Source: Candidatus Woesearchaeota archaeon
GTDB taxonomy: Archaea; Nanobdellota; Nanobdellia; Woesearchaeales; GW2011-AR4
Direction of reading: 5' to 3'
NCBI GenBank assembly: GCA_016192985.1
Contig: JACPTC010000064.1
Coordinates: forward strand, 1 to 22,802
DNA length: 22,802 bases
The notes under the pieces: model-generated
Told to the model about the DNA's origin: nothing
Seen by the model: the letters and a program-made list of their open reading frames with translations, nothing else
Databases searched by the model: none
Made by a program: the position numbers and the translations under genes
Shown: piece after piece, positions 177 through 15,575 of the stretch
Position numbering within the stretch: the stretch's first letter is position 1
Layout: the number at the start of each line of letters is the position of its first letter

Positions 177-190
177 TTACATTGTATTAC

Positions 191-469
191 ATGGATAATA
201 CTATGGAAACTGTAACATTTAAACTTCAGGAAGATGTTGTAAAGAAAATAGATTCAGTCTTAAAACCTTTGCATTTCAGCAATAGGACAGAATTTATCAG
301 GGAATCTATCAGGGAAAAGCTAAACTCGATAGAAAAAGACATTGTTCTACAACATCTAGTGGCTTTTAAAGGCACTGCAAAAAAGAAAATAAGCGATAAG
401 GAACTACACAAGATTAGGGATGGGGTTGCCAGCGAATACGCCAAAAAATTTGGTATCAAGCTAAATTAA
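191..469 (+). CDS. Ribbon-helix-helix (CopG/Arc-type) DNA-binding protein, antitoxin-like
   Basis: The N-terminus TVTFKLQEDVVKKIDSVLKPLHFSNRTEFIRESIREKL matches the beta-strand/helix/helix RHH pattern. The ORF track starts at a TTG at 182; ATG at 191 or 203 is more plausible given the TATA position. Confidence 0.65.
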   Translation: MDNTMETVTFKLQEDVVKKIDSVLKPLHFSNRTEFIRESIREKLNSIEKDIVLQHLVAFKGTAKKKISDKELHKIRDGVASEYAKKFGIKLN

Positions 470-877
470 TTCTTCTGGCTTTTTGATAGTTATTTTATCT
501 TTTAACTTTCTGAAATGGCGGTCTCTTGTCACCATAACTGCATTAGCGTCTCTAGCTAGTACCCCATGAACAGCATCTCCTAAAGGAATCTTATGCTCTT
601 TTGACAAATCAGCAGCTTCTTTTAATTGCTTTTCATTAATTTCAACTTTTTCAAGCAATTCTGATACGCCTTTGAAGAGCTTACCAATAGTTTGCTTATC
701 GTAAGCGTGTGATAATTCCTCAACAACAAAATCTGAATAAACAATTTTCTCTTTATTGGCACGTATTTTCTTGAACAATTCAAATGCCAATTCTCCAAGA
801 TTTTTGGATTTGTCTTTCCTGTTTTCATGGAGGTCTCTCCAAATTGCTGTGTCTACGTAATATTTTGATGCCATCAT
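461..877 (-). CDS. PIN-domain ribonuclease (VapC-like toxin)
   Basis: The four PIN acidic positions are in the expected order and context: YYVDTAIW (N-terminal D), VVEEL, PLGDAVHGVLA and VTRDRHF. The size (138 aa) is typical. Confidence 0.8.
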   Translation of the reverse strand: MMASKYYVDTAIWRDLHENRKDKSKNLGELAFELFKKIRANKEKIVYSDFVVEELSHAYDKQTIGKLFKGVSELLEKVEINEKQLKEAADLSKEHKIPLGDAVHGVLARDANAVMVTRDRHFRKLKDKITIKKPEELI

Positions 878-955: not shown

Positions 956-976
956 TAATCTAATATTATTAGATTA
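956..976. promoter_or_regulatory. Perfect 10-bp-arm palindrome in the divergent PIN / 79-aa-gene intergenic region (candidate operator)
   Basis: TAATCTAATA-T-TATTAGATTA has exactly reverse-complementary arms and a 1-nt spacer. It lies about 30 bp upstream of the TATA-like box at 1002-1009. Confidence 0.45.
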
Positions 977-1001: not shown

Positions 1002-1009
1002 TTTAAATA
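1002..1009 (+). promoter_or_regulatory. TATA-box-like element placing the transcription start at about the ATG of the 79-aa gene (leaderless)
   Basis: TTTAAATA is centred about 27 nt upstream of ATG 1033. Confidence 0.45.
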
Positions 1010-1032: not shown

Positions 1033-1272
1033 ATGGTAAAAGTTAGAATTGAAAATGAAACTAAGGAAGAAAAATTTAAAAGAATAGCTGAAGCAAGGGT
1101 TAACAAATTACTCGAGCAGTTTGCCATCTTAAGAAATTGCTCAAATACTCAAGTGTATAGCTATTCTGAACCTCAAATAAACAAGATATTCAAAGCTCTA
1201 GAAGAAGAATTGAGAATAACTAAAGTAGCTTTTCAGTATAATAAGAAAGCAAGGAAAGGCATAAAACTTTAA
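1033..1272 (+). CDS. Small (79 aa) helical, lysine/glutamate-rich protein, first gene of the GHKL operon
   Basis: The ORF has a good TATA spacing. Its stop at 1270-1272 is followed 1 nt later by the ATG of the next gene. I recognise no motif. Confidence 0.5.
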   Translation: MVKVRIENETKEEKFKRIAEARVNKLLEQFAILRNCSNTQVYSYSEPQINKIFKALEEELRITKVAFQYNKKARKGIKL

Positions 1273-1273
1273 A

Positions 1274-3229
1274 ATGGAATTTGTAAAAAGGCTATTTGGA
1301 AGCAAAGAAGTTGAAACTAATGTCGATGAAACAATATTTTCAGCCAGTTTTGAAAAAGAAAAACAAATAGTTTCTGCTTTAAATATGGTTGGTGCTGGTT
1401 TTGAAGCACGAGGCGGAAGTTCATTAATGTTAACAGAAGCAGTTGAGAATGGTGTCGATGCAATTATAAAATTCAATGAAAATAAAAAAAAGAAAATCAA
1501 AGGAAAAATCAAAGTGCTGATTGACAAAGACAATGAAAGAATATTGATAATAGATAATGGCACTGGATTTTTGCAAATCAAGCACGTTTGCGAGAAACCT
1601 TTTGATTCATTGAAAGAGCTGGATATTACTCAAACAGGAAAATTTGCTAGAGGATTGCAGGGGTTTAGAGCATTTTGTGAAAATTTATATTTCATCACAA
1701 AAAGACTTCCCGAAGATATACCTTCCAATGAAACTGATGTCATACCTGCTAATGCAGGTTCTTCTAGGCTTGTAGTTAAACTTGAGTTTAATTCAATGTC
1801 CAGTAAAGTTAAAGTAAAATATATAGATAAGTCCAAATTTGATGAATATTCAAATTCAGAGCATGGTACAATTTGCATATATGAAAAATGGAAACCTGGA
1901 CTGTTTGAAAAATTTAATGTAAATATGTTGTTTAAAAGACTTCAACACCATTTTGGAGAATTAATTAGAAAAGGAGAAATACGAATACTCGTAGAATCAT
2001 ACGAAGGAAAAATCGCGGAAATAGGACCTGAACAAGAAAAATTTCAGGAAGTTGAACCAAGAGACTATTCAGGATTTACTCCCATAGTCATCAATCCAAT
2101 TCCTTATGATAAAAATGAGAAAAAAGGAGAAATAAGTTTCAATTTGCACTTGTGTGATAGGGGTAGAAGTGATAGATGGAATCAGCCCTACTTGCTTTTT
2201 CAAGGAAGACCAGTTGGAGATGGATTTGTCTCAGAAATAGATGAATTTGCAGAACGTCCTATATGGAAACATAGGTTTCTTACTGGATATGTAACATGTG
2301 ATTTTTGTGAAATTAACGAACTAAGACAAGGTTTAAAAATTAATGATGAACGTGATCTTTTATTCAAGGAACTTCTCAAAATTGAAAAATTACTTGAGAA
2401 TAAAGTAAAGGAACATTCCAAAGGATTGTATGAGTTAAAGTTACAGAGACAAGTTAGCGAACTTGTAAAGGATTTACAATTATTTTTTAAATCAAAGAAT
2501 ATATTTAATTTTAAGATAGCTAAGAGTATGGGATTTCTCTCAAAAGAAAACAATGAGATTGAAGTTGTGGAGTTAGCAAAGTCAACCGGTCAAGACCCTA
2601 ATTTGGAAGTAAAAAATCCTGCAGGAGAAGGTACAGAAATATCTGGCATGGAAAAATTTGAAAACACAAATGTAAAAAAGGAGGAAGGGGGACAAGAAAA
2701 AACATTAAACCCTGATTTAGGAACACATGGAGATGGTCATGGCCAAATAAAGGCAGGTGGTCTAGGAGAAGATGCAAAAGTTGCCGAATTGCAAGATAAG
2801 GATAAAGAGAAGGGCTTTAAAGAATCTGAAAAAGGTATTAATAAACCTACAGAACAAACACAACCTCACGAGACTGGGGGAAATGATAAAATTAAGAGAA
2901 AAGGAATGAGGCATAAACCTCGTGGATTTGGCATGGTATTTCAGGATGACGAATTTAATGAAGACCTATCATGGTTTGATGAATTGAATTCAGTTGTCAT
3001 AATTAACTCACAACATCCTAGATACTTATCAAGATTAGAAGATGAATCTCACTTTAGAGATTTAATGAATTATTTAGCAGAATTGTATGTTTGGGAAATA
3101 ACCAAACTAGTACATTCGAAAGATGATGAACTCCAAAAAGGTATGAAATTTCTCGACTATAAATTTGAATATTTTGAAAAGATGAGAAGAGACCAGCAAG
3201 AAGGTGTCTATGCAAATGATTCAGAGTGA
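1274..3229 (+). CDS. GHKL-superfamily (MORC / Hsp90 / MutL-like, HATPase_c_3-type) ATPase with a long low-complexity linker and a conserved-looking C-terminal domain
   Basis: Bergerat-fold motifs occur in order: N-box LTEAVENGVDAI (E-x-x-x-N-x-x-D-A), G1 box LIIDNGTGF (D-x-G-x-G), and a G2-like TGKFARGLQGFRAF. An acidic/lysine/glycine-rich segment spans about residues 440-545. The C-terminal block is RGFGMVFQDDEFNEDLSWFDELNSVVIINSQHPRY. Confidence 0.75.
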   Translation: MEFVKRLFGSKEVETNVDETIFSASFEKEKQIVSALNMVGAGFEARGGSSLMLTEAVENGVDAIIKFNENKKKKIKGKIKVLIDKDNERILIIDNGTGFLQIKHVCEKPFDSLKELDITQTGKFARGLQGFRAFCENLYFITKRLPEDIPSNETDVIPANAGSSRLVVKLEFNSMSSKVKVKYIDKSKFDEYSNSEHGTICIYEKWKPGLFEKFNVNMLFKRLQHHFGELIRKGEIRILVESYEGKIAEIGPEQEKFQEVEPRDYSGFTPIVINPIPYDKNEKKGEISFNLHLCDRGRSDRWNQPYLLFQGRPVGDGFVSEIDEFAERPIWKHRFLTGYVTCDFCEINELRQGLKINDERDLLFKELLKIEKLLENKVKEHSKGLYELKLQRQVSELVKDLQLFFKSKNIFNFKIAKSMGFLSKENNEIEVVELAKSTGQDPNLEVKNPAGEGTEISGMEKFENTNVKKEEGGQEKTLNPDLGTHGDGHGQIKAGGLGEDAKVAELQDKDKEKGFKESEKGINKPTEQTQPHETGGNDKIKRKGMRHKPRGFGMVFQDDEFNEDLSWFDELNSVVIINSQHPRYLSRLEDESHFRDLMNYLAELYVWEITKLVHSKDDELQKGMKFLDYKFEYFEKMRRDQQEGVYANDSE

Positions 3230-4130
3230 TCTTCAAAGCATAGTGGATTTCTATTCAACAATTATTAGTAAAGAAAGAGTAGGCTCTAGATTTGAGGCTC
3301 ATGATGTAAAAAAGATATGGAAACTTGGAGACATGATTATATCTACCATCAAACCTCTTGATTTAACAAGTTTGTTACCTAAGTTAGATCAAATTCACAA
3401 AATTAAAAGCATTCGTTATCGAGACATGCTTTACAGGGCTGCAATCACTTTTAGAAGATACTGGCAAGAGGAAACACAATACAAAGAAGTAGTAAACTAT
3501 CTTAACATATGGAGAAAACTAAGGGCATTTTATCCAGTCTGTGAAGAAATTCTTAAAGGAGATGCTAAATACACAATAAATGACGTTGATAATTTAATTA
3601 AACAATGCAAGGATAAGACTGCTGAAGAAATAATTGAATTAACAAAAAGACTGCGAAAAAAAGATGATAAAATTCTTGAAGAATTGAGAATAGATTTATA
3701 CGAGTTCAGGGAATCTCTTATTAATGTATCGGATGAATTACTCAAAATAATAGAAGAAGACTCAAAAACTGAGAATGAGTTGAGAAAAATATATTCTCCA
3801 GAACAATTACGAGCTTTTAGATTATTATTGTCTGCTTTGCAGAAGGAAGAAGTATACTTAAAACATAACCAAGGAATCAAGAAAACAGTAAAAAAAGTGT
3901 TATCTCAAACAGATTTAGAAATAGGTAATCAATTAAATGAGATTTTTAACTCTATTAATAGATTTATAAATAACGAAAAAGCTAGAATCTTAGTCAGAAA
4001 GGAAATTCCTGTTACTTTTATAGGCAATTTATCAACATATTTAAGGGCGGTAGAATCTGACGCAAACAAAGAACAATATAAAAAAAATAAGGAGATTCTC
4101 AACAAATTTATAGGAAAAATGAGTTCATAA
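3204..4130 (+). CDS. 308-aa all-helical protein of unknown function, translationally overlapped with the GHKL ATPase gene
   Basis: The long ORF has a start region (ATGs at 3204/3210/3216) that overlaps the ATPase stop (3227-3229). I recognise no catalytic motif. Confidence 0.6.
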   Translation: MSMQMIQSDLQSIVDFYSTIISKERVGSRFEAHDVKKIWKLGDMIISTIKPLDLTSLLPKLDQIHKIKSIRYRDMLYRAAITFRRYWQEETQYKEVVNYLNIWRKLRAFYPVCEEILKGDAKYTINDVDNLIKQCKDKTAEEIIELTKRLRKKDDKILEELRIDLYEFRESLINVSDELLKIIEEDSKTENELRKIYSPEQLRAFRLLLSALQKEEVYLKHNQGIKKTVKKVLSQTDLEIGNQLNEIFNSINRFINNEKARILVRKEIPVTFIGNLSTYLRAVESDANKEQYKKNKEILNKFIGKMSS

Positions 4131-4492
4131 TATTTTAAAGAAAGATGGCAATCAAATCAAAAATAGTGAAAGTCAAAATTAAGCAAAGCCCCTATTAATA
4201 TTTTTGAGTGCGTTCCTTGATTCTTGTTCTTTATTATCCATACGTTGTACAAGATTATAGTAATTAGAATATATATATTAGAATATGGATAATATGATTA
4301 TAATCACTAACAAATAGAAAAACTTTTAAATAGATGTTGCTAAACCAATATTTAAATTAGCCCCAGTTGAAGAGGAGTGATAATGAAAAAAGAGGGTTTA
4401 GGTGGTTTGAATAATTCTCAGGATTTGAAAGGTAACTTTAAAAAGAGGTACGTATTAACTCTATACTTCAAGGAAGGGGGGTGTGTTTTTTA

Positions 4493-5521
4493 ATGAAAAT
4501 AGCTATACTTACACCTACGTTTAATTACTATAGCGGTATTGATAGGGTAGCTCAAGATAGGGCAGAGCGACTTTCAAAAAAAGGTCATAAAGTAACTGTT
4601 TTTGCATTTGAAGCAAAAATTAAGCCAAAAGGTTATAAAACTATAAGAATATATATATCACAATTTTTAGAAAGGTTTTATAGGTTATTTCCATTCTTGT
4701 ATTTTAATAAAAATATTATTAAAAAACTTAAAGAGTTTGACCAAATAATATCCTTTAACGAACCGATGGATTCTATTGCAGTTCAAGCAAAAAAAAGATA
4801 TAAAATAGAATATATTGCTTGGTTTAGTGGTTTTTATGCGCGTGGTGAAAATCTGCTAGAAAAAATTTATATGACTATCTTTAGATATTTTTATCTTAAA
4901 GATCTTAAACAAGCCGATAAGATTGTATGTGTCAGTAACACTATTAAAAATAAATTAATTAATTCTGATATTGATATTAAAAAAACAAAAGTTGAATATG
5001 ATTTAAATAATATTGATAAATCTAGATTTAATAGAAATGTAAAAAAAATGAATTTAAGCAAGATAAATGAAATAATTAGAAATTATAATTTACAAAACAA
5101 AAGAGTGTTCCTGTATGTAGGTAGACTTGCCACTAGCAAAAGAGTGGATTTGTTAATTAAAATGTTCAAAATGGAAAAAAATGAACATCCAGAATATAAA
5201 CTTATAATAGTAGGAAAACCAACATTTAAAAGATATTTCAAAAAATTATTAAGTATGGCTGATGAAGATGTAATTTTTACTGGCGAAGTATATGATAAAG
5301 ATTTACCAGCTTATTATGCTGTATCTGATGTTTTTGTAACGGCATCGCAAGATGAGGGATTTAATTTGCCTGCTGTGGAAGCTCAAGCTTGTGGTAAACC
5401 AGTAGTTGCTTTTGATGTTGGATCTAATAGGGAATTAATTAAAAAAGGTACTTTAGTTCGAGAAGGAGACATAAATGGGTTCACTAGTGCTATGAATAGT
5501 TATGCTAATTCTGTCCGTTAA
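4493..5521 (+). CDS. GT4-family (Glycos_transf_1) glycosyltransferase
   Basis: The C-terminal signature EGFNLPAVEAQACGKPVVAFDVGSNRELI (E-x7-E type) and the N-terminus MKIAILTPTF are typical of GT4. I prefer ATG 4493, preceded by the purine-rich GGAAGGGGGGTG, over the track's GTG at 4481. Confidence 0.8.
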   Translation: MKIAILTPTFNYYSGIDRVAQDRAERLSKKGHKVTVFAFEAKIKPKGYKTIRIYISQFLERFYRLFPFLYFNKNIIKKLKEFDQIISFNEPMDSIAVQAKKRYKIEYIAWFSGFYARGENLLEKIYMTIFRYFYLKDLKQADKIVCVSNTIKNKLINSDIDIKKTKVEYDLNNIDKSRFNRNVKKMNLSKINEIIRNYNLQNKRVFLYVGRLATSKRVDLLIKMFKMEKNEHPEYKLIIVGKPTFKRYFKKLLSMADEDVIFTGEVYDKDLPAYYAVSDVFVTASQDEGFNLPAVEAQACGKPVVAFDVGSNRELIKKGTLVREGDINGFTSAMNSYANSVR

Positions 5522-5598
5522 AAAGACGATTTATTTAAAAATAAGCGATGAATTCTATCAATAATTTACCTAAATAACACTATCATAAAACTGCTAAA

Positions 5599-7095
5599 AT
5601 GAATTTAATCGAGAAATTAAAAAATCAGGAAAAATACACGAAATACTCAATATATCTTATTATAATTTTTTCAATTATAGTAATTACCTTGGCTTCAGTC
5701 TATCATGTTTCAGGAGACGGCTGCTGGCATATGCCCGTTGGAAAGTACATTGCAAAAGAGCATAAATTCCCGCTTTTTGAGCCGTTAGGAAGGGATGAAC
5801 CGTTCTGGAGCCCGCCTTTATACCACATCGCTATTGCGGCTGTTTACAGTATTTTCAGCATTTTCGGGGGCAATATTGCAAATTCTGCACCAAAATTCAT
5901 CCCGCCTTTTTTCGGAATATTGTCGCTTGCGTTTTCATTCTTAACTATAAGGAAGCTGCTTAACTCCAGAACAGCCTTTTACTCAATACTTTTCATGGCT
6001 TTTGTCCCAATCTTTATTGATTACAGCGTATTGAGCTATGCTGAAAGCATTCTTGTGTTTTTTGTTGTTTTGAGCGTTTACCTTCTGATCAATAACAAAA
6101 TTGCCTTATCAGGAATTGCCGCAGGGCTTTCCATACTGGCAAAATACAATGGTGTTTTTATTTTGCCTATCCTGATTTATATTCTCTACAAAAGAAATGA
6201 TAAAAAGGCTTTTCTTAAAAAATCAATGGTTCTTGCTTCATTCTGTATTTTAATAGCTATGCCGTGGCTCATAAGGAACTGGATATTGCTTGGCAATCCA
6301 ATATGGCCGTTTCTGAATTTCATTTTCAGCGGAATTGAAGCTAAATCATATTCAACACTTGACTTCAGCAGGATTGTCCATCCTAATATCATTTCATTTA
6401 CTTTGCTTGGATTTTTCGGGGTTCCTGACGGCAATTATGCCGCATTTTCATTTTTTGGCCTGCCATTGATTAGGATTTTGCTGCCATTGTGGCTTGTAGC
6501 CTCTATTGTTTTTATAACTCCTGCATTCATTGGCATTTTTCATTCAAAAAAAGCTCCAGAAGCAAAAATTTTCATTTTATGGCTTTCATCTTATTTTATC
6601 CTGTTCTTGCTTTATGTACTAAACGTTGGGTGGTCAGTGTCAAGGATGCTGCTGCCGGCTTTTCCTGCACTGGCTGTTTTTTGGGCTTTTGGATACAAAG
6701 TGCTGATGCAAAAGGCGATATTCAGAAAAACCGCATTTTTAATATTGGTTATTGCTGCCGGGCTTGTGTTTTCTGAATTTATTAAATTTATCCTGGCATC
6801 AAATGAATGGAGTTTTTACAATCATGATTTTGAATGGGTAAGGCAGAACACAGCGAAAGAATCTGTGTTCATAGCCAGCGGCCAGTGCATTCCTTACAAT
6901 ATTGAAAGAACATCATTGCATTTCAGCGAGGAAAACATAAAAAATGCGGATTACCTATGGCTCAACCAGAATTTCAGGCTTGACAAGAGGTCCGTTCTCA
7001 GTCAAAATGAAATCCAGTCAATTCATTCCAGAAACTTCAAAATTGCTTATGACAACAAATCTACCGGAACTAGGATTTACCAGATCAAACAATGA
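5599..7095 (+). CDS. Polytopic membrane GT-C-fold glycosyltransferase (PMT/ArnT, GT39/GT83-like)
   Basis: The protein has more than 10 hydrophobic segments. A first-loop acidic motif is followed by SPPLYH (GRDEPFWSPPLYHIAIA), resembling the D/E...PPL signature of PMT_2/ArnT-type enzymes. It has a soluble C-terminal domain. Confidence 0.65.
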   Translation: MNLIEKLKNQEKYTKYSIYLIIIFSIIVITLASVYHVSGDGCWHMPVGKYIAKEHKFPLFEPLGRDEPFWSPPLYHIAIAAVYSIFSIFGGNIANSAPKFIPPFFGILSLAFSFLTIRKLLNSRTAFYSILFMAFVPIFIDYSVLSYAESILVFFVVLSVYLLINNKIALSGIAAGLSILAKYNGVFILPILIYILYKRNDKKAFLKKSMVLASFCILIAMPWLIRNWILLGNPIWPFLNFIFSGIEAKSYSTLDFSRIVHPNIISFTLLGFFGVPDGNYAAFSFFGLPLIRILLPLWLVASIVFITPAFIGIFHSKKAPEAKIFILWLSSYFILFLLYVLNVGWSVSRMLLPAFPALAVFWAFGYKVLMQKAIFRKTAFLILVIAAGLVFSEFIKFILASNEWSFYNHDFEWVRQNTAKESVFIASGQCIPYNIERTSLHFSEENIKNADYLWLNQNFRLDKRSVLSQNEIQSIHSRNFKIAYDNKSTGTRIYQIKQ

Positions 7096-8053
7096 ATTTT
7101 GGCTTGAAGAGATAGGATTCATCAAAAACTTTCAGTATGTAGGAATCATCGGCTTTTCTGAATTTCTGTATGAGTTTTCTTTTTTCAATTATAGACTTCA
7201 GGCTCATGGCAACATATGCAATTGCCTTTATTCTGGATAAAGCGATGCTTATTTTTAAAGCCAAAATATCCTTAACAATCGCAATGATTCTCGCAAACAA
7301 CACATATGGCAGAAACAAGGCAATTCTTTTTATTGAAAATATCTTCAAAAAAGTTTCAAGCAGGTTCCTTTCCATAAGGAAGGTGTTGAACGATTTTTTT
7401 GCCTTTTGAGTTGTTGCGGCATGCACATGATAAATAATGGCGTCAGGCACAAATACTGTTTTCATGCCGCTCAATCTTATCCTCAAACCCAAATCCAAAT
7501 CCTCGGCATAGACAAAATAATCCCTGTCAAATAAATAACCGTACATTTCTACAAAACTCTTTCTTATTAATCCCACTCCCATGTAAGGAATTTCCCTGAC
7601 AGCATCTGGATTATTTCCCTTAATGTGGCCGTTGTAAAAAGCCCTTGAAACCCATGTTCCATTTGATTTAAGCTTTTTGTTGTAAAAGTTCGCAAGCGCC
7701 GGGGCAGCCATTGCAATATTGCCATCTGCTTCAATTGCCTTAACCATGCTCTTAAGGCAATTTTTATCGAGCTTCATGTCATTATTGAGGAAGAAGATGT
7801 ACTTGCCTTTGCAGTGCTTCAAAGCAGAATTAATGCCGCAATAGCCAATGTTCTCCTTATTTTCGACAAGTATCACATTCTTATAATTTTTCCTTATGAA
7901 CTGCTTGCTTCCATCGCTTGAATTGTTGTCAACAACTATTATTTCAAAACTGCCAAAATTGATGCCTTTTATTGAATCGAGAATAATTTTCAGCAAATCT
8001 TTCCCGTTAAAATTTACTATTACAACAGAAACTTTGATTTTTTTATCTGGCAT
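7085..8053 (-). CDS. GT2-family glycosyltransferase
   Basis: VSVVIVNFNGKDLL...FEIIVVDNNSSDGS and the later YAEDLDLGLR motif are classic GT2 (rhamnosyl/galactosyl-transferase-like) signatures. Its 3' end overlaps the convergent 5599-7095 gene by 11 bp. Confidence 0.85.
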   Translation of the reverse strand: MPDKKIKVSVVIVNFNGKDLLKIILDSIKGINFGSFEIIVVDNNSSDGSKQFIRKNYKNVILVENKENIGYCGINSALKHCKGKYIFFLNNDMKLDKNCLKSMVKAIEADGNIAMAAPALANFYNKKLKSNGTWVSRAFYNGHIKGNNPDAVREIPYMGVGLIRKSFVEMYGYLFDRDYFVYAEDLDLGLRIRLSGMKTVFVPDAIIYHVHAATTQKAKKSFNTFLMERNLLETFLKIFSIKRIALFLPYVLFARIIAIVKDILALKISIALSRIKAIAYVAMSLKSIIEKRKLIQKFRKADDSYILKVFDESYLFKPKFIV

Positions 8054-8134
8054 TTTTCCCCTTCTGGTTATGTCTTATTTAAAATTTACTAAAATAAAGA
8101 AAGGTTTATAAAAGTCGGCTATTTTTGGCGCATA

Positions 8135-8773
8135 ATGCAATTAACAATACCTTCTAGAAAGAACGTAAAAGAAACTAACGAAGGCGACCCGCTCAAATAT
8201 TATTATGTTCCCATTATAAGGTACCCTTTTCTTCTTAGGCTAAAAAACGCCGTTGATTTGCTTGACACTAAAAAGTATGACAAATTGCTGGACTTAGGGT
8301 GTGGTTCGGGCATCTTTCTGCCGGAATTAAGCAAGCATACAAATAACCTTTATGCCACAGATATGCATAATAATATGAAAGATGTTAAGAGGATGGCGAA
8401 AAATGAAGGAGTCAAAGTTAAACTTTTTCATAGCAATATACTCAAAGGCAGTTTTATAAAAGAAAAATTTGATGCAATTGTTTGTGTTAGTGTATTAGAG
8501 CACTTAGACAGGCTGGATATCGCACTTGACAACATCAATAAAATTCTTAAAGATGACGGCGTTGCGGTATTTGGCTTTCCTTCAAATAATTTCATTGTCG
8601 ATACTGCATTAAAGCTTCTTTGCTGGAATATAGAAGAGCATCATGTATCTTCGCACCAGAATATTTTAAAGGCAATTCAAAACAAGATGAATATAGTGCA
8701 ATTTAATAATATACCAAATATAAAAAATCCAAAAAGAGCCATATACATAGTATGCAAATGTGTAAAGAAATAG
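8135..8773 (+). CDS. Class I SAM-dependent methyltransferase
   Basis: Motif I is KLLDLGCGSGIF and the post-I acidic residue lies in LYATDM. FDAIVCVSVLEHL is typical of the Methyltransf_11-type fold. Confidence 0.8.
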   Translation: MQLTIPSRKNVKETNEGDPLKYYYVPIIRYPFLLRLKNAVDLLDTKKYDKLLDLGCGSGIFLPELSKHTNNLYATDMHNNMKDVKRMAKNEGVKVKLFHSNILKGSFIKEKFDAIVCVSVLEHLDRLDIALDNINKILKDDGVAVFGFPSNNFIVDTALKLLCWNIEEHHVSSHQNILKAIQNKMNIVQFNNIPNIKNPKRAIYIVCKCVKK

Positions 8774-8781
8774 CATTTGGA

Positions 8782-10470
8782 TTAGTGGTCAGTCACGACT
8801 AAGTAAATATCAAAATTCTCAAGCTTTGCGTCTGATATGGAGTATGGCAAAAACCCTCCGCCATAAGTGTAAAATCCTGCATGCGCCCGACCATTTTGAG
8901 TTCTTATTGGCAAAGACCCATCATAACTTACAGTTTCAAGCAACACTGTTCTTTTCTTGAGTTCTGATATCATTTTTCTTGGAGACGGGATTCTGGCTTT
9001 TGCTATTATATCCCCTTTTTTTGGCTCATTGCTTCCTATAAGCAGAACTTTATAATTTTTATTTTCCATGTAATACTGAAAACCATAGTGGCCCAAGAAC
9101 CATACAGTATTGTTGCTTGATTTGTATTTGTCCGCTACATTATAGGCAAAATCCTTATAAACTGTTGCAAAATTAAAATCCGCTAATGCCACAACAATTC
9201 CTGTAGCCATTGTTGCGAAGAGCATAATCAAGAGAATTGGTATTTTTTTGAGCTTATATCTTTCTGCATATTTGTCAAATAATTTCATATAGACCAATAC
9301 CAATGGCGGCAGGAACAAAGTGTTGTATTTCACTGAACCGCCTGATATGAAACCGCTGTTGAATATATAGACACCAAAAAACCAGATCAATAAAAAGAAT
9401 GTGTTCGAGTCACATCTTGAGTTTCTGAATGACAAAGTAGATTTTATGCAGGGTGTAATTTTATTGCAATATTCTGCTATCACTGCCAAAATAAAAAATG
9501 CCGAACTTGCAACAAAAACAGTAAACATCATCAGCTGGGGAATAGTGTATTGTCCTGAAATGAAATTCTCCGAGACTTGGTATAGCAGAAACGCCATTAC
9601 TACTGTTATAGAGACACAAGCTGCCAATAACATCCAGTTTCTTTTCTTGTATAAAAAAGGGTACAAAAAGAAGAATGTAAAAATAGTGGCGCCTCCGATG
9701 TAGCTTAGATTGGCTATAAAGTAAGCCACGTAAATTTCCATGCCTCCTGCAGATTGTTTTAATTGAAATAAAAACGGTATGTATCCCAAAATCAAGACGT
9801 CGTTTTGAAAAAAATAGTTATGGATTGAAAATAATGTAATCATGGCAATCGGAACAAGCGTATACGCTGTATATCTTGGCTTTTTTTTCAAGATTGCATA
9901 AAGCGCAAGCAAAGGTATTATCACTATTGCATTGGGCTTTGTAAGATAGGCGAGACCTGCTGCAAAACCTCCCAAGAACATAAGCTTATGATTTGATTTG
10001 TCAGTTCCGTATATAAAAAGTGCCGTAGCCAATAAAAACATGGAAATCATAGGAACATCTGGCATGATATTATGCGACATTACCAAATATGTGGGCGTTG
10101 ACACCATAATAAGCGTAGGTATAAGCGCATTGATTAGAAATTTTTTAGCCAAGAAATAAAAAGATATTCCAGCTAGAATTTTAAATATGATAAACGATAA
10201 GTGCACGGTTATTTCTGACTTTCCAAATAAGACAAATATCAGTGCAGCATAATAAGAAACTAGAGGCGTGTCGTCAATGTGTGATGCTTGTCCGCTTTGA
10301 GAAGACCATTCAAAATTGAATGAGTATGGCCTTAAAGGATCTTTAGTTATTTGCTCAGCAACGTACATGAAGGGGGTGTCATCAACATGATATGGCTTTG
10401 ATATAAAAGGCAGGGACAAAATTATGGATAATAGGGTTATTATAAGAATTGCTGATTTTTCACTCGCCAT
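8782..10470 (-). CDS. Second polytopic GT-C-fold glycosyltransferase (PMT/ArnT-like)
   Basis: The protein has many TM segments. The N-terminal loop carries YHVDDTPFMY and HIDDTPLVSYY acidic motifs. The soluble C-terminal domain is about 130 aa. Confidence 0.65.
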   Translation of the reverse strand: MASEKSAILIITLLSIILSLPFISKPYHVDDTPFMYVAEQITKDPLRPYSFNFEWSSQSGQASHIDDTPLVSYYAALIFVLFGKSEITVHLSFIIFKILAGISFYFLAKKFLINALIPTLIMVSTPTYLVMSHNIMPDVPMISMFLLATALFIYGTDKSNHKLMFLGGFAAGLAYLTKPNAIVIIPLLALYAILKKKPRYTAYTLVPIAMITLFSIHNYFFQNDVLILGYIPFLFQLKQSAGGMEIYVAYFIANLSYIGGATIFTFFFLYPFLYKKRNWMLLAACVSITVVMAFLLYQVSENFISGQYTIPQLMMFTVFVASSAFFILAVIAEYCNKITPCIKSTLSFRNSRCDSNTFFLLIWFFGVYIFNSGFISGGSVKYNTLFLPPLVLVYMKLFDKYAERYKLKKIPILLIMLFATMATGIVVALADFNFATVYKDFAYNVADKYKSSNNTVWFLGHYGFQYYMENKNYKVLLIGSNEPKKGDIIAKARIPSPRKMISELKKRTVLLETVSYDGSLPIRTQNGRAHAGFYTYGGGFLPYSISDAKLENFDIYLVVTDH

Positions 10471-10488
10471 AATTTATCCTTTCATGGA

Positions 10489-11220
10489 TTATTGTGCCTT
10501 TACGATTTTTTGTCTTTTATTAATATCCATCCTTAGCCTAATCAATCCCATAAGCTCGTGCAACACAATCTTTGGTATAGACTTTAAAGGAAAAACATTT
10601 GTCTTGCCGTCAAATCTTTTAAAATGCCTCACAGGAACTTCGAGTATTTTGTAGCCTTTATACTTTGCCCTTATAACAAACTCTGACGTAAAAAACATAA
10701 GCCTGCCTATGCTTGGCAGTATATCTTCAACAGCACTCTTCTTGAATAACCTAAAACCCGTATCAGTGTCGTACAACCTCAGTCTTGGAAACATCACTCT
10801 TGCCAAAATATTAAACCCTCTCGAAAGTATAATTCTATGGAAAGGGTCTTTTCTCTTGAGCTTTCTTCCAAGGATTATATCATATATTCCAGTATGTTCA
10901 TATAATTTCCAGAAATCTGGGGGAGCAAACTGGTAGTCAGAATCAACAAGAAATATCCACTCGTATTTTGCATGTTTAATCACATCTATTATAGCTTTTT
11001 GGTAGCCTTTTCTCTTTGAACTCATAAAAAGGACCAAAGGCATTTCTCTTTTCATGCGCTTAAGGATATGCCTTGTATTATCTGTACTTCCATCTTCAGC
11101 TATTATAATTTCAAAGTCTATTTTCCCTTTGAACTCATTATAATAATCATTGATGCTTTTTCCAATAGTCATCTCCTCGTTGTGTACCGGTATGACAACA
11201 GAAATTTTCGGGGTGTTCAT
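10489..11220 (-). CDS. GT2 glycosyltransferase, dolichyl/polyprenyl-phosphate sugar synthase-like
   Basis: [11 protein letters not shown]...[18 protein letters not shown] (DxD) and [11 protein letters not shown] match the GT2 DPM1/GtrB-like pattern. Its start overlaps the fcl stop as ATGA. Confidence 0.85.
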
Positions 11221-12170
11221 AAGTTATCTTTTTTATAGTTTATCTTATACCACTCAATTGTTTTTTTCAGCCCTTCTTCAAGGCTTGTGCTGGCTTGAAA
11301 ATCAAACTCCTTTCTTGCTTTATCAACATTCAGGCACCTCCTTGGCTGGCCGTCCGGCTTTGTATTGTCCCAGATTATGCTGCCTTTGAAGTCAGCTAGC
11401 CTTGCTATCAGCTGAACAAGATTTTTTATGGAAATTTCCCTGCCTGTGCCCAAATTAACAGGGTCGCTTTTGTCGTATCTGATTGCGGCAAGCACAATCC
11501 CTTCTGCAGCATCTTCAACGTAAAGAAACTCCCTTGTGGGATTTCCTGTGCCCCACACAACAAGGTCTTTTCCATTGTTTTTGGCATCAAACACCTTTCT
11601 TATGATTGCAGGTATCACGTGAGATGTTCTCAAATCAAGATTGTCGAATGGCCCGTACATGTTGGCAGGCAGCAGGAATATAGAATTAAAACCGTATTGC
11701 TTCCTGTATGCCTGCGACTGCACAAGAAACATTTTTTTTGCAAGCCCGTAAGCGGCATTTGTCTCTTCAGGATAGCCGTTCCATAAATCCTCTTCCTTAA
11801 ATGGAATATCGATTATTTTTGGGTATGCGCAGACAGTTCCAATAGCGACAAACTTCTCAACATTGGCTTTTCTTGCTTCTTCCATGAGCTGCACGCCCAT
11901 GATTATGTTGTTGTAAAAAAGCTCGCCTGGAATTTCTTGATTCAAGCCTATGCCTCCAACCTTAGCTGCAAGATGTATCACAATATCTTTATCCTTGACA
12001 ACCCTTCTGCACGCTTCTTTCTCCCTTAAATCGTCTGCTTTTGAGCTTGGAACTATTATATTAGCTTCTGAAGCGCCATGCTCCATAAGTTTTTTATGCA
12101 CAAACTTGCCTACAAATCCCTTGCCGCCTGTAAGGAGAATTTTTTTATTCCTTAGATTAATATCTGGCAT
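11217..12170 (-). CDS. fcl: GDP-L-fucose synthase (GDP-4-keto-6-deoxy-D-mannose 3,5-epimerase/4-reductase), SDR family
   Basis: The Rossmann motif is [13 protein letters not shown]. It is followed by [47 protein letters not shown] (the YxxxK catalytic pair) and [18 protein letters not shown]. These closely follow the Fcl/WcaG family pattern. Confidence 0.85.
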
Positions 12171-14744: not shown

Positions 14745-15575
14745 TTATAATGCGGGGGAAGGGATTCGAACCCTCGCAGCCACTAAGGCATACGGTTTTT
14801 GCTTAGCGACCTCAACCGTATTCATTTGACCGGGCTCTGACACCCCCGCACTGAGTATGTTAGCACTTCCTTTAAGGATTTCATATCTCTGTTTGAGTGT
14901 AGTGCGAGGTGGACAGAATCCAAATCTCTTCCAAATCTCAAATTTAGTAATGTGCTTTGGATTATTTGAATCAATTAGTTTGAAGTATTTGATTACATTT
15001 TCTCCATCAATTTGTACCCTATTCAGATTATTCCAATTTTCAACCTTTTGTTTATATGATTTAACTATTATATTTTTAATTTCAAATTCTTTTAATATCT
15101 TACTTACTTCACTAATCAGTTCTTTAGATATGCTACTGATACTAATTCGTATTTTCTTGTAACTCTTTTTCTTGTTTGTGATACAATAAACTGTCCCGTC
15201 TGTATCAAAATGACCCCTCAAAAATCCTTTCATAAACTCCTTCTTTTCTAAAACCCATTCAGGAATTTTTAATTCTTGTTTTATACCTACTGGAACACCG
15301 AGCGAAACTAAGTAATTACAAATTTCTTTATTTTCTGTGCTAATTCCATAATAGGGCTTCTTACCTTTATACATTGTTGTAGGGATTTTAGCAATCATTT
15401 CATCAAATAATAGTTTAACATAATTATCATAATGTTCTCTATCTTCAATTATATGGCCCCTCATCTGAAATCTTAATTTTCCTCTATTTTTTCCGGAGTG
15501 CCTTCTTGTTAAGCTTCCATCTCCAAAACATAAACCTACAATTTCTGCTGTTTTTTCGTTTCTTATTACTTCCAT
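14745..15575 (-). CDS. LAGLIDADG homing endonuclease (double-motif); the ORF runs in frame through the whole tRNA-Leu gene
   Basis: The two motifs are IVGLCFGDGSL (about residues 12-22) and FMKGFLRGHFDTDGTVY (about 114-130), roughly 100 aa apart. A strong SD (GTGGAGGTATCAAAATG) precedes the start. The last 34 codons (14849-14748) are the tRNA sequence itself and the stop TAA lies 3 nt past the tRNA end. The true C-terminus is therefore uncertain. Confidence 0.8.
   Translation of the reverse strand: MEVIRNEKTAEIVGLCFGDGSLTRRHSGKNRGKLRFQMRGHIIEDREHYDNYVKLLFDEMIAKIPTTMYKGKKPYYGISTENKEICNYLVSLGVPVGIKQELKIPEWVLEKKEFMKGFLRGHFDTDGTVYCITNKKKSYKKIRISISSISKELISEVSKILKEFEIKNIIVKSYKQKVENWNNLNRVQIDGENVIKYFKLIDSNNPKHITKFEIWKRFGFCPPRTTLKQRYEILKGSANILSAGVSEPGQMNTVEVAKQKPYALVAARVRIPSPAL
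14751..14849 (-). tRNA. tRNA-Leu(GAG), class II (long variable arm), with a predicted ~13-nt intron 3' of position 37; no encoded CCA
   Basis: Folded by hand on the minus strand. The acceptor GCGGGGG pairs with CCCCCGC, with discriminator A. The D arm is TCA-GAGCCCGGTCAAA-TGA. The anticodon stem TACGG/CCGTA encloses TTGAGG + TCGCTAAGCAAAA + A, giving U33, anticodon GAG and G37. The variable arm is GCC-TTAGT-GGC and the T arm is GAGGG-TTCGAAT-CCCTT. Confidence 0.85.

What the first reader, a model, noticed from the sequence alone, without database searches (positions are those of the whole stretch)
1033..4130. Tightly coupled three-gene operon built around a MORC/Hsp90-type GHKL ATPase: candidate uncharacterised conflict/defence system
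Three same-strand genes are packed for translational coupling. There is a 1-nt gap between the 79-aa and 651-aa genes, and the 308-aa gene overlaps the 651-aa gene by about 14-26 nt. The central protein has an intact Bergerat ATP-binding fold (EAVENGVDA, DNGTGF, GKFARGLQGF). No histidine-kinase, gyrase/topo, MutL-endonuclease or chaperone partner domain is recognisable. Stand-alone HATPase_c_3/paraMORC-type ATPases in prokaryotes are known to cluster with restriction-modification and other anti-invader genes (Iyer, Abhiman and Aravind analysis of MORC/MutL homologues). Here the ATPase sits beside a PIN toxin gene in an AT-rich insert, a typical defence-island context. I do not recognise either partner, so the gene combination may be undescribed. 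The function is an inference, not something the sequence shows.
Basis: partly seen in the sequence, partly recalled or inferred. Interest (0 to 1): 0.78.

Follow-up and report, generated by a model that had tools for sequence, protein, structure and literature searches.

The report
Archaeal GHKL ATPase module, methylase-linked
A rare archaeal gene pair sits here: an Hsp90/MORC-like ATPase plus a helical partner of unrecognised fold, preceded by a small basic protein; in relatives this pair almost always lies next to a DNA methyltransferase in defence islands, so it is probably an undescribed methylation-linked anti-invader system, though this copy has no methylase next to it.

Summary
Three intact, tightly packed + strand genes (79, 651 and 306-308 aa) lie at 1033-4130, and the 651-aa protein has all the Bergerat ATP-binding motifs. 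Its model resembles Hsp90 N-terminal plus middle domains (Foldseek E 1e-13). It then has a disordered linker and a C-terminal domain that matches nothing. The partner gives a confident all-helical model with no PDB or viral structural match.

The family is rare and almost entirely archaeal. No trio protein, relative or partner tested matches PADLOC; none of the three window proteins matches PHROGs, and their Pfam and NCBIfam hits are all below the curated cut-offs.

The conserved unit is the ATPase plus partner: 50 of 51 assessable loci, co-evolving at r=0.93. A DNA methyltransferase (C5 or N6/N4) is present in 36 of 41 loci. It is usually convergent with the partner gene and often comes with Vsr, a HhH-GPD glycosylase or a UvrD-type helicase-nuclease. 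The methylase is frequently swapped (r=0.30).

The 79-aa gene is one of several alternative upstream genes. It lies behind a conserved palindrome and TATA box.

The window's clade has no linked methylase, yet it is under purifying selection (dN/dS about 0.1).

Best reading: a new archaeal variant of the paraMORC-type, methylation-linked conflict systems. The mechanism is inferred.

The parts
956..976 (+). Operator-like palindrome TAATCTAAT-ATT-ATTAGATTA: two perfect 9-nt arms with a 3-nt spacer, 57 nt upstream of the start of the 79-aa gene.
   Evidence: Read directly from the sequence. The core CTAAT-N3-ATTAG lies at the same offset in L019, L001 and L024 (-314 from the ATPase start) and at -303 in L023, although the flanks have diverged. 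Across 727 kb of fetched loci, the pattern with N3-5 spacing occurs only 7 times, always just upstream of this ATPase gene. Which protein binds it is not known.
1002..1009 (+). TATA-box-like element TTTAAATA, about 24-31 nt upstream of the ATG at 1033. This implies a leaderless or near-leaderless archaeal transcript.
   Evidence: The block TTTAAATATTAG / TTTATATAATAG is the best conserved stretch of the aligned upstream regions of six loci. Its promoter role is inferred from general archaeal promoter architecture. The sigma-70 scan gave no more matches than shuffled sequence.
1033..1272 (+). 79-aa basic protein (pI 9.8), probably two helices joined by a loop (my reading of the sequence; no structure prediction was run). 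It is a clade-specific upstream gene and a candidate regulator or adaptor.
   Evidence: ORF. Homologues precede the ATPase gene in 10 non-redundant loci. dN/dS is 0.08 against L019. There is no meaningful match in Pfam, NCBIfam, PADLOC, PHROGs or PDB sequences. It is not homologous to the alternative upstream genes.
1274..3229 (+). 651-aa GHKL ATPase, the core component.
   Evidence: 89 homologues were found, with invariant Bergerat motifs. AF2 model pLDDT is 74.7.
1391..1969 (+). Bergerat-fold ATP-binding domain (about aa 40-232): N-box E55/E58/N59/D62, G1 D94-G96-G98, G2 G122...G127-Q129, and G198.
   Evidence: Invariant columns in 40 sequences. HATPase_c hits 15 of 40 members and HATPase_c_3 hits 8 of 40. 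PDB profile hits are to the Hsp90 N-box/G1 region.
1970..2494 (+). Middle (transducer-like) beta-rich domain (about aa 233-357), with invariant R312-P313, followed by a 50-residue helix (aa 358-407).
   Evidence: Foldseek aligns 385-486 columns to Hsp90 N-terminal plus middle domains (E 1.4e-13) and to the SMCHD1 ATPase module (1e-10). A role for R312 as the gamma-phosphate sensor is inference.
2495..2833 (+). Acidic, Gly/Glu/Lys-rich disordered linker (about aa 408-520).
   Evidence: pLDDT is below 50 at 415-427 and 459-517. Length and sequence vary in the alignment. pI is 4.9.
2834..3226 (+). Family-specific C-terminal domain (aa 521-651). It has a basic R-x-x-P-R-G-F patch and conserved E560, S566, N578, H581, R583, Y605 and W607. 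It is a candidate dimerisation and/or catalytic domain.
   Evidence: Conservation is shown. Nine diverse C-terminal domains gave no Pfam match. The more distant HATPase_c_3 relatives match only profile positions about 42-390, so this domain defines the core family.
3210..4130 (+). 306-aa basic (pI 9.2) all-alpha partner protein (308 aa if the GTG at 3204 is used), translationally coupled to the ATPase gene.
   Evidence: It follows the ATPase gene in 50 of 51 assessable non-redundant loci. It is homologous across all clades at 20-56% identity. Its distance matrix correlates with that of the ATPase at r=0.93. The AF2 model has pLDDT 89.9 and pTM 0.86, with 19 helices. There is no structural match in PDB (best E 1.3) or BFVD (best E 1.2).

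Best explanation
The locus encodes a stand-alone copy of a rare, horizontally mobile archaeal conflict (anti-invader) module. It belongs to the 'paraMORC' kind, that is, GHKL ATPases that work with DNA methylation.

Proposed mechanism (inferred):

1. The 651-aa protein is a constitutive dimer held together by its unique C-terminal domain.
2. ATP binding closes the N-terminal Bergerat domains, as in Hsp90, MutL and MORC. This forms a clamp that captures DNA.
3. The basic all-helical partner binds the clamp and supplies DNA or target recognition, or couples the clamp to an effector.
4. In most relatives a neighbouring, separately transcribed DNA methyltransferase marks host DNA, so that only unmarked (foreign) DNA is acted on.
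5. Damage to the target is done by accessory nucleases where these are present (a UvrD-PD-(D/E)xK helicase-nuclease, or a phage-type exonuclease). Otherwise it may be done by the uncharacterised C-terminal domain or the partner.
6. The 79-aa basic protein, encoded 1 nt upstream and behind a conserved palindrome plus TATA box, is probably an autoregulator or adaptor. It would be analogous to the controller (C) proteins of restriction-modification operons.

In this window the methyltransferase is missing from the neighbourhood. Either an unlinked methylase serves the module, or this clade works without self-marking.

What is shown: the gene structure, the fold class, conservation, co-evolution, the methylase linkage and the island context. 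What is inferred: DNA clamping, self/non-self logic, and the roles of the partner, the C-terminal domain and the small protein.
For: - Intact ATP-binding motifs are invariant across the family.
- The fold resembles Hsp90 N+M and the SMCHD1 ATPase module. Relatives hit HATPase_c_3, the Pfam GHKL model that also hits the more distant 550-630-aa relatives.
- The partner is present in 50 of 51 loci and co-evolves with the ATPase (r=0.93).
- A DNA methyltransferase is present in 36 of 41 non-redundant loci. Two unrelated families are used (26 C5, 9 N6/N4, 1 both). In 22 loci it is convergent and within 700 nt of the partner stop, often within 1-30 nt. This is the classic layout of R and M genes.
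- Vsr or HhH-GPD T:G repair genes accompany the C5 methylases.
- UvrD-PD-(D/E)xK helicase-nucleases (GajB-like in PADLOC), a BrxD-like ATPase and a phage-type exonuclease are recurrent accessories.
- Neighbourhoods hold integrase, T4SS, transposase, Mrr, HsdM, SIR2 and AAA_21+RloB genes.
- The family is rare and patchy: 27 clusters at E<1e-30. It occurs in Woesearchaeota, Methanosarcinales, Methanocellales, Thaumarchaeota and Bathyarchaeia bins.
- One copy is decayed (L055).
- The trio has low GC3.
- The promoter palindrome is conserved.
- Iyer et al. 2008 (PMC2292703) predicted this role for GHKL+S5 ATPases next to cytosine methylases, Vsr and helicases.
Against: - No nuclease or other effector domain was recognised in any of the three window proteins.
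- The window, L019, L022/L015 and L081 have no methyltransferase within 5-18 kb and no remnant of one. Yet the genes are under purifying selection. A restriction activity would not tolerate this unless a methylase is encoded elsewhere.
- Methylases have been swapped between closely related ATPase-partner pairs. In L020 versus L080 the ATPases are 77% identical and the methylases 36% identical; overall r=0.30. This is hard to reconcile with an independent, sequence-specific restriction component.
- There is no experimental evidence for any member.
- No homologue was found in the phage, plasmid or IMG/VR collections that could have given annotated context.
Confidence: 0.55

Rival explanations
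1. It is a MutL-like repair module. The ATPase would act as a matchmaker and the partner as a lesion or mismatch sensor. Together they would coordinate T:G-specific incision (Vsr or HhH-GPD) and excision (UvrD-type helicase-nuclease) to repair deamination of 5-methylcytosine made by the linked C5 methylase. This would be an archaeal analogue of E. coli Dcm-Vsr-MutL-UvrD very-short-patch repair.
For: - The architecture is MutL-like: a GHKL domain, a middle domain, a disordered linker and a C-terminal domain.
- Vsr or HhH-GPD genes are often in the same operon, directly after and overlapping the partner gene (L006, L008, L011, L025, L028, L035), sometimes followed by UvrD-PD-(D/E)xK.
- In some loci a HhH-GPD domain is fused to the C5 methylase.
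- A generic repair role would tolerate methylase swapping.
- Iyer et al. raised this possibility.
Against: - Nine clades pair the module with N6/N4 methylases and have no T:G repair gene.
- Several copies, including the window's, have no methylase, Vsr or glycosylase nearby.
- There are no MutL_C or DNA_mis_repair Pfam hits.
- The distribution is sporadic and island-borne, and one copy is decayed. This fits a mobile conflict element better than a repair function.
Confidence: 0.15
2. It is a nuclease-free DNA-compaction or silencing module, or a mobile-element maintenance module. The clamp and partner would coat or loop DNA to silence or stabilise it, as eukaryotic MORC and SMCHD1 do. The target would be unmethylated incoming DNA or the element itself. 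No cleavage would occur.
For: - No nuclease is detectable in the minimal cassettes (small protein, ATPase, partner, methylase).
- There is fold similarity to the SMCHD1 and Hsp90-type ATPase modules.
- The partner and the small protein are basic.
- Copies lacking a methylase survive under purifying selection, which a non-lethal activity would allow.
- The module occurs on integrative or conjugative elements.
Against: - Helicase-nucleases and exonucleases are recurrently recruited in other clades.
- There are no SMC-hinge, coiled-coil or CW-type reader domains.
- Nothing here tests DNA compaction.
Confidence: 0.12
3. It is a signalling or protein-directed GHKL enzyme: either a protein kinase of the anti-sigma-factor or CapK type, or an Hsp90-like chaperone. 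It would act on the partner or the small protein to regulate neighbouring genes.
For: - There is a weak NCBIfam hit to SpoIIAB (E 0.01), and JGI labels one homologue 'anti-sigma regulatory factor'.
- The top structural matches are Hsp90 chaperones.
- GHKL kinases that control immune operons exist (CapK/CapS, PMC13373217).
- There is a conserved operator-like palindrome.
Against: - There is no STAS, HisKA or HTH domain.
- The protein has the middle domain typical of DNA- or client-clamping GHKL ATPases, which small GHKL kinases lack.
- The Pfam HSP90 model does not hit, and identity to Hsp90 is 12-17%.
- The linkage to DNA methyltransferases and DNA-repair enzymes points to DNA as the substrate.
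Confidence: 0.08

Closest known systems
MORC / paraMORC1-5 GHKL ATPases of prokaryotic restriction-modification neighbourhoods (Iyer, Abhiman & Aravind 2008, PMC2292703)
   Same: - An N-terminal GHKL domain with intact ATP motifs, followed by a middle domain and a family-specific C-terminal extension.
- Neighbourhoods with cytosine (rarely adenine) methylases, Vsr endonucleases and helicases.
- A sporadic, laterally mobile distribution.
   Different: - This family is almost entirely archaeal.
- It has its own C-terminal domain: no PD-(D/E)xK, TIR or HxH motif, and no Pfam match.
- It is always coupled to a ~300-aa all-alpha partner of unrecognised fold.
- The associated helicase is SF1 UvrD-type rather than SF2.
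MutL with Dcm, Vsr and UvrD (E. coli mismatch and very-short-patch repair; from established knowledge)
   Same: - The order GHKL domain, transducer, disordered linker, C-terminal domain.
- Genomic company of a C5 methylase, Vsr or a T:G glycosylase, and a UvrD-like helicase.
   Different: - No DNA_mis_repair or MutL_C domains and no DQHA(X)2E(X)4E endonuclease motif.
- No MutS.
- It is also linked to N6/N4 methylases, or to no methylase at all.
Hsp90/HtpG and the SMCHD1 ATPase module (closest solved structures)
   Same: Best Foldseek matches run over about 385-486 columns covering the N-terminal ATPase and middle domains (E 1e-13 to 1e-10).
   Different: - 12-17% identity, with TM-scores (normalised to the query) of only 0.24-0.38.
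- The Pfam HSP90 model does not hit.
- The C-terminal domain differs.
- The context is a rare genomic island rather than a housekeeping location.
[not shown]
   Same: These are GHKL-ATPase-containing anti-phage systems. In VcSduA the ATPase is proposed to gate a nuclease.
   Different: - There is no DUF4263 / PD-(D/E)xK domain fused to the ATPase.
- The window proteins and their relatives give no PADLOC hit to any Shedu, Mza or other model.
Controller (C) protein-regulated type II restriction-modification operons (from established knowledge)
   Same: - A small basic protein is encoded immediately upstream of, and coupled to, the 'restriction-side' gene.
- A conserved palindrome lies just upstream of the promoter.
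- The methylase gene is convergent in relatives.
   Different: - No HTH or other known DNA-binding fold is detected in the 79-aa protein.
- Binding to the palindrome is untested.
- In other clades the slot holds unrelated genes: a 207-212-aa protein, a TFIIB-like protein or an exonuclease.
BREX / DISARM-type multigene methylation-based defence
   Same: The larger relatives (L004, L008, L028 and others) combine a methylase, a BrxD-like AAA ATPase, a helicase-nuclease and several proteins of unknown function in one cluster.
   Different: - There are no PglZ, PglX, BrxL, DrmA/B or DrmD hits.
- The core ATPase-partner pair has no counterpart in those systems.
- The window carries only the three-gene version.

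Membership tests
GHKL (Bergerat-fold) ATPase superfamily | Motifs I-IV: the N-box E-x-x-x-N-x-x-D, G1 D-x-G-x-G, the G2 glycine-rich lid, and the motif IV G-T. | tested here: met
   E55/N59/D62, D94/G96/G98, G122/G127/G130 and G198-T199. All but G130 (nearly invariant) and T199 (conservation not reported) are invariant in 40 homologues. HATPase_c or HATPase_c_3 hits occur in members. The fold matches Hsp90 and GyrB.
paraMORC-type R-M-associated GHKL ATPases (Iyer et al. 2008) | A GHKL domain followed by an S5-like transducer domain. | tested here: inconclusive
   Foldseek aligns the N-terminal and middle domains to Hsp90 and SMCHD1, and the region is beta-rich. I did not verify an S5 domain-2 topology as such.
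paraMORC-type R-M-associated GHKL ATPases (Iyer et al. 2008) | A conserved neighbourhood with DNA methylases, Vsr or restriction-type nucleases, and helicases. | tested here: met
   This is met for the family: 36 of 41 loci have a methylase, with Vsr, HhH-GPD and UvrD-nuclease recurrent. It is not met in this window or its nearest relatives.
MORC family proper | The MORC-specific signature motif, or membership by phylogeny. | not testable with these tools
   Only 8 of 40 members reach HATPase_c_3 (best E 8e-8). MORC structures were not among the top 50 Foldseek hits.
MutL | A DNA_mis_repair (S5) domain and a MutL_C dimerisation/endonuclease domain. | tested here: not met
   No Pfam or NCBIfam hit to either domain. 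The C-terminal domain has no Pfam match.
Hsp90/HtpG chaperone | Sequence membership (Pfam HSP90) and housekeeping conservation. | tested here: not met
   Only the N-box/G1 region matches Hsp90 sequences, at E 0.015 or worse. There is no HSP90 Pfam hit. The family is rare and island-borne.
Topoisomerase VI-B / type IIB topoisomerase | A transducer domain plus a Spo11/Toprim A-subunit partner. | tested here: not met
   No Topo VI-B Pfam hit. The partner is all-alpha with no Toprim or winged-helix match.
Known anti-phage systems in PADLOC 2.0 (including Shedu, Mza, Hma, BREX, DISARM and Gabija) | A profile match to a system component. | tested here: not met
   None of the three window proteins, the distant homologues or the relatives' partners gives a hit. 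Only accessory genes of relatives hit generic models (BrxD weakly; GajB/UvrD; MTase_II/DrmMII).
Classical restriction-modification system | A cognate methyltransferase together with an endonuclease. | tested here: inconclusive
   A methyltransferase is linked in most relatives but absent here. No endonuclease domain was identified in the core proteins.
C-protein-type controller | A small HTH protein that binds a palindromic C-box upstream of its own gene. | tested here: inconclusive
   The position, the coupling and the conserved palindrome are present. No HTH was detected and binding is untested.

The most novel reading that the evidence does not exclude
The ATPase-partner pair is a nuclease-free, ATP-gated DNA clamp. 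It would read the methylation state set by whichever methyltransferase lies beside it, and then compact or silence unmarked DNA. That would make it an archaeal functional counterpart of eukaryotic MORC/SMCHD1 epigenetic silencing, built with a partner protein of a previously unseen fold. This would explain three observations: methylases can be swapped freely, no nuclease is detectable in the minimal cassettes, and methylase-less copies such as this one persist under purifying selection.
Probability: 0.12. Interest if true: 0.85.

Novelty: new variant of a known kind. Interest (0 to 1): 0.58.

Why it matters
GHKL ATPases beside restriction-modification genes were predicted in 2008 to be DNA-manipulating engines and the source of eukaryotic MORC proteins. 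Almost none has been studied, and hardly any archaeal member was known.

This family gives a compact and well-defined test case:
- an ATPase and its partner that co-evolve tightly;
- a partner with a confidently predicted but unrecognised fold;
- an exchangeable methyltransferase;
- natural variants with and without the methylase, nucleases and regulators.

Working out how it tells marked from unmarked DNA, and whether it cuts, clamps or repairs, would add a new archaeal immune or genome-maintenance mechanism. It would also show what GHKL clamps do with methylated DNA outside eukaryotes.

Tried and rejected
- **Housekeeping identity (MutL, Hsp90, topo VI-B, histidine kinase).** Rejected: no Pfam or NCBIfam domain hits, the family is rare, and it lies in genomic islands.
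- **Known defence systems.** PADLOC was run on the window proteins, on distant HATPase_c_3 relatives and on the larger relatives' components. There were no core hits.
- **Viral or plasmid origin.** No relatives were found in IMG/VR, INPHARED phages or PLSDB plasmids. PHROGs gave nothing for the trio.
- **Partner as a nuclease or known fold.** Foldseek against PDB and BFVD gave nothing below E=1. A PDB sequence profile search found only a weak coiled-coil-like IncA match.
- **79-aa protein.** PDB profile hits to de novo TIM barrels are artefacts of repeated designed helices, with per-domain E above 100. hhalign showed no relation to the TFIIB-like, exonuclease or 207-aa alternative upstream genes.
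- **C-terminal domain of the ATPase.** Nine diverse sequences scanned against Pfam at E up to 5 gave only scattered noise.
- **Methylase remnants in the window and close relatives.** tblastn at E up to 1 found none.
- **Palindrome search.** My first search used the wrong spacer (N4) and found nothing in the window. The correct spacing is N3. The N4 version inside the 207-aa ORF of L022/L015 may be coincidental.
- **Sigma-70 promoter and terminator scan.** Uninformative for an archaeon.
- **Literature.** The supplement of Iyer et al. is not held as text, and the MANTIS preprint could not be opened.

Full report
**Observation**

The + strand carries three ORFs at 1033-1272 (79 aa), 1274-3229 (651 aa) and 3204-4130 (308 aa from GTG). 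NCBI annotates the last as 306 aa, starting at the ATG at 3210. The first stop and the second start are separated by a single base. The third gene overlaps the second by 14-26 nt, depending on the start used.

The window is a 22.8-kb contig of a Candidatus Woesearchaeota MAG. The proteins are annotated as hypothetical (HYY70_07130 and HYY70_07135).

These are E55, E58, N59 and D62; D94, G96 and G98; G122, R126, G127, Q129 and F131; and G198. Pfam gives only a sub-threshold HATPase_c match and no accessory domain. NCBIfam, PADLOC and PHROGs give nothing meaningful for any of the three proteins.

**The ATPase**

An AlphaFold2 model built on the family alignment has pLDDT 74.7. It shows:
- an ATP-binding domain (about aa 40-232);
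- a beta-rich middle domain (233-357) containing the invariant R312-P313;
- a 50-residue helix;
- a disordered acidic Gly/Glu/Lys linker (about 408-520);
- a compact C-terminal domain (521-651).

Foldseek against the PDB aligns about 385-486 columns to Hsp90 N-terminal plus middle domains (E 1.4e-13) and to the SMCHD1 ATPase module (1e-10). Sequence profiles reach only the Hsp90 N-box/G1 region.

The C-terminal domain carries a basic RxxPRGF patch and conserved E560, S566, N578, H581, R583, Y605 and W607. It matches no Pfam family.

A profile search of 1.84 billion cluster representatives found only 27 clusters at E<1e-30. A wider halo of 550-630-aa HATPase_c_3 proteins shares only the N-terminal two domains. 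So this is a rare, distinct family inside the Hsp90/MORC-like branch of GHKL ATPases. It is not an orthologue of MutL, Hsp90 or topo VI-B.

**The partner and the small protein**

The ~300-aa protein is basic (pI 9.2). It gives a confident all-helical model (pLDDT 89.9, pTM 0.86, 19 helices). It has no significant structural neighbour in the PDB (best E 1.3) or among viral models (best E 1.2).

The 79-aa protein is basic (pI 9.8) and probably forms two helices (read from the sequence; no model was made). It has no recognisable relatives.

**Comparative genomics**

I gathered 81 related loci from metagenomes and MAGs. I classified their ORFs with seed-based phmmer searches. There are 61 non-redundant ATPase groups.

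- The partner gene directly follows the ATPase gene in 50 of 51 assessable groups.
- Pairwise distances of the ATPase and the partner correlate at r=0.93. The two are therefore an obligate, co-evolving pair.
- A DNA methyltransferase is present in 36 of 41 groups: 26 C5 (PF00145), 9 N6/N4 (PF01555) and 1 with both.
- In 22 groups the methylase is convergent with the partner gene and ends within 700 nt of its stop, often within 1-30 nt or overlapping it.
- C5 methylases come with Vsr or HhH-GPD T:G repair genes. These lie sometimes in the methylase operon and sometimes translationally coupled after the partner. In some loci the glycosylase domain is fused to the methylase.

Four architectures recur:
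- A: small protein, ATPase, partner, then a convergent C5 methylase (with or without Vsr).
- B: C5 methylase, BrxD-like AAA ATPase, a 321-aa protein, a TFIIB-like protein, ATPase, partner, sometimes HhH-GPD, sometimes a UvrD-PD-(D/E)xK helicase-nuclease. This type is found in Thaumarchaeota, Bathyarchaeia and unclassified archaeal genomes.
- C: a phage-type exonuclease (phrog_298, E 8e-58), an ATPase with an N-terminal zinc ribbon, a 347-aa partner, then a convergent N6/N4 methylase. This type is marine.
- D: ATPase, partner, then a convergent HhH-GPD::C5 methylase fusion.

Methylases are exchanged often. ATPase-to-methylase distances correlate at only r=0.30. In L020 versus L080 the ATPases are 77% identical but the methylases only 36%.

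Flanking genes include an integrase, a T4SS, transposases, Mrr, HsdM, SIR2 and AAA_21+RloB. No relatives were found in viral, phage or plasmid collections.

**The upstream slot**

The 79-aa gene precedes the ATPase gene in 10 non-redundant groups. In other loci the slot is taken by unrelated genes:
- a 207-212-aa protein in L022, L015 and L080, including a locus whose ATPase is 89% identical to the window's;
- a TFIIB-like protein;
- the exonuclease.

Upstream of the 79-aa gene lies a 21-nt palindrome, TAATCTAAT-ATT-ATTAGATTA (956-976). A TATA-like TTTAAATA follows at 1002-1009, about 24-31 nt before the ATG. Both blocks are conserved at the same positions in L019, L001, L023 and L024 although the flanks have diverged. 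This suggests a regulated, leaderless operon. The arrangement resembles C-protein-controlled restriction operons, but which protein binds the palindrome is unknown.

**This window's copy**

The window, its syntenic relative L019 (84% identity, sharing the RHH and PIN neighbours), L022/L015 (89%) and L081 lack any methyltransferase within 5-18 kb. tblastn finds no remnants.

The genes are intact and under purifying selection, with dN/dS 0.08-0.15 within this clade. A related copy in L055 is truncated.

The trio's GC3 (0.22-0.25) is below that of most neighbours (0.34-0.42). This is consistent with horizontal acquisition but does not prove it. Downstream lies a glycosylation gene cluster unrelated to the system.

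**Interpretation**

The fold, the co-evolving partner, the linkage to two unrelated methylase families in the convergent R-M layout, the recurrent nuclease and helicase accessories and the island context together best fit a methylation-linked conflict module. This is the paraMORC kind predicted by Iyer et al. (PMC2292703).

I propose an ATP-gated dimeric DNA clamp, with the basic partner as DNA- or target-recognition subunit or coupling subunit. The methylase would mark self DNA. The 79-aa protein would act as regulator or adaptor. I put this at 0.55.

Three facts argue for caution:
- no nuclease is recognisable in the core proteins;
- methylases are swapped between close relatives;
- methylase-less copies persist.

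Each of these fits the rivals at least as well. The rivals are MutL-like coordination of T:G repair (0.15), a nuclease-free silencing or compaction or element-maintenance role (0.12), and a kinase or chaperone-type regulator (0.08; compare CapK, which has a different architecture).

**Novelty**

The general class is known from prediction. Related GHKL fusions such as VcSduA (Shedu type I-D) have been shown to defend. This archaeal family has its own C-terminal domain, an obligate partner of unrecognised fold and modular upstream and downstream genes. It is absent from PADLOC 2.0, reaches no curated cut-off in Pfam or NCBIfam, and does not appear in the literature I could search. I rate it a new variant of a known kind.

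Noticed in passing
window 182-469 (+) and 461-877 (-): The RHH gene and the PIN gene are convergent and overlap tail-to-tail by 9 nt. This is not the usual co-directional antitoxin-toxin operon. The PIN gene has no upstream antitoxin ORF and shares a 155-bp divergent promoter region with the GHKL operon. The same arrangement is conserved in L019.
   Followed up: partly
window 14751-14849 (-): Rfam finds a 99-nt tRNA (41 bits) that ARAGORN missed. It is probably an intron-containing archaeal tRNA. It overlaps the 3' end of the 276-aa ORF at 14745-15575 (-), so that ORF call may be wrong at its end.
   Followed up: no
window 4481-12170: A glycosylation gene cluster follows the trio: GT1, two PMT_2 glycosyltransferases, two GT2, a SAM methyltransferase and an NAD-epimerase. 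The GT1 gene has a very low GC3 (0.16), so it may also be recently acquired.
   Followed up: partly
L004 5116-13568; L008 3055-14309; L028, L035, L040, L054: A conserved 6-8-gene cluster occurs in Thaumarchaeota, Bathyarchaeia and unclassified archaeal contigs. It comprises a C5 methylase, a BrxD-like AAA ATPase, a 321-aa protein of unknown function, a TFIIB-like protein, the GHKL ATPase, the partner, sometimes HhH-GPD, and sometimes UvrD-PD-(D/E)xK. It looks like a larger, undescribed methylation-based system built on the same core.
   Followed up: partly
L012-L014, L067, L068 (Tara and other marine contigs): A marine clade has a treble-clef zinc ribbon at the ATPase N-terminus and a 347-aa partner. 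A phage-type exonuclease (phrog_298) lies directly upstream and a convergent N6/N4 methylase downstream. The contigs are full of short ORFs and may be viral or plasmid-like.
   Followed up: partly
L015 (MAG labelled Methanosarcinales) versus the window (Woesearchaeota): The ATPases are 89% identical, yet the bins are assigned to very different archaeal lineages. This points to either recent horizontal transfer or mis-binning of a mobile island.
   Followed up: no
L055 10001-11181: This is a decayed copy. The ATPase is reduced to a 138-aa N-terminal fragment (90% identical to the window's) and the partner is truncated to 234 aa. No methylase is nearby.
   Followed up: partly
L011 5218-7975: Directly upstream of the GHKL-partner-HhH-GPD-C5 methylase set lie a 721-aa protein with HATPase_c_3 plus histidine-kinase-type ATPase domains and a response-regulator gene. 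This resembles the two-component-like elements linked to paraMORCs and R-M systems by Bellieny-Rabelo et al. 2021 (PMC8011034).
   Followed up: no
L022 2894-4778 (-): An AAA_21 (AbiEii/OLD-like) ATPase plus RloB pair lies immediately upstream of the 207-aa, GHKL and partner genes. Archaeal Hef and glutamate dehydrogenase lie downstream. This is a small defence islet inserted among housekeeping genes.
   Followed up: partly
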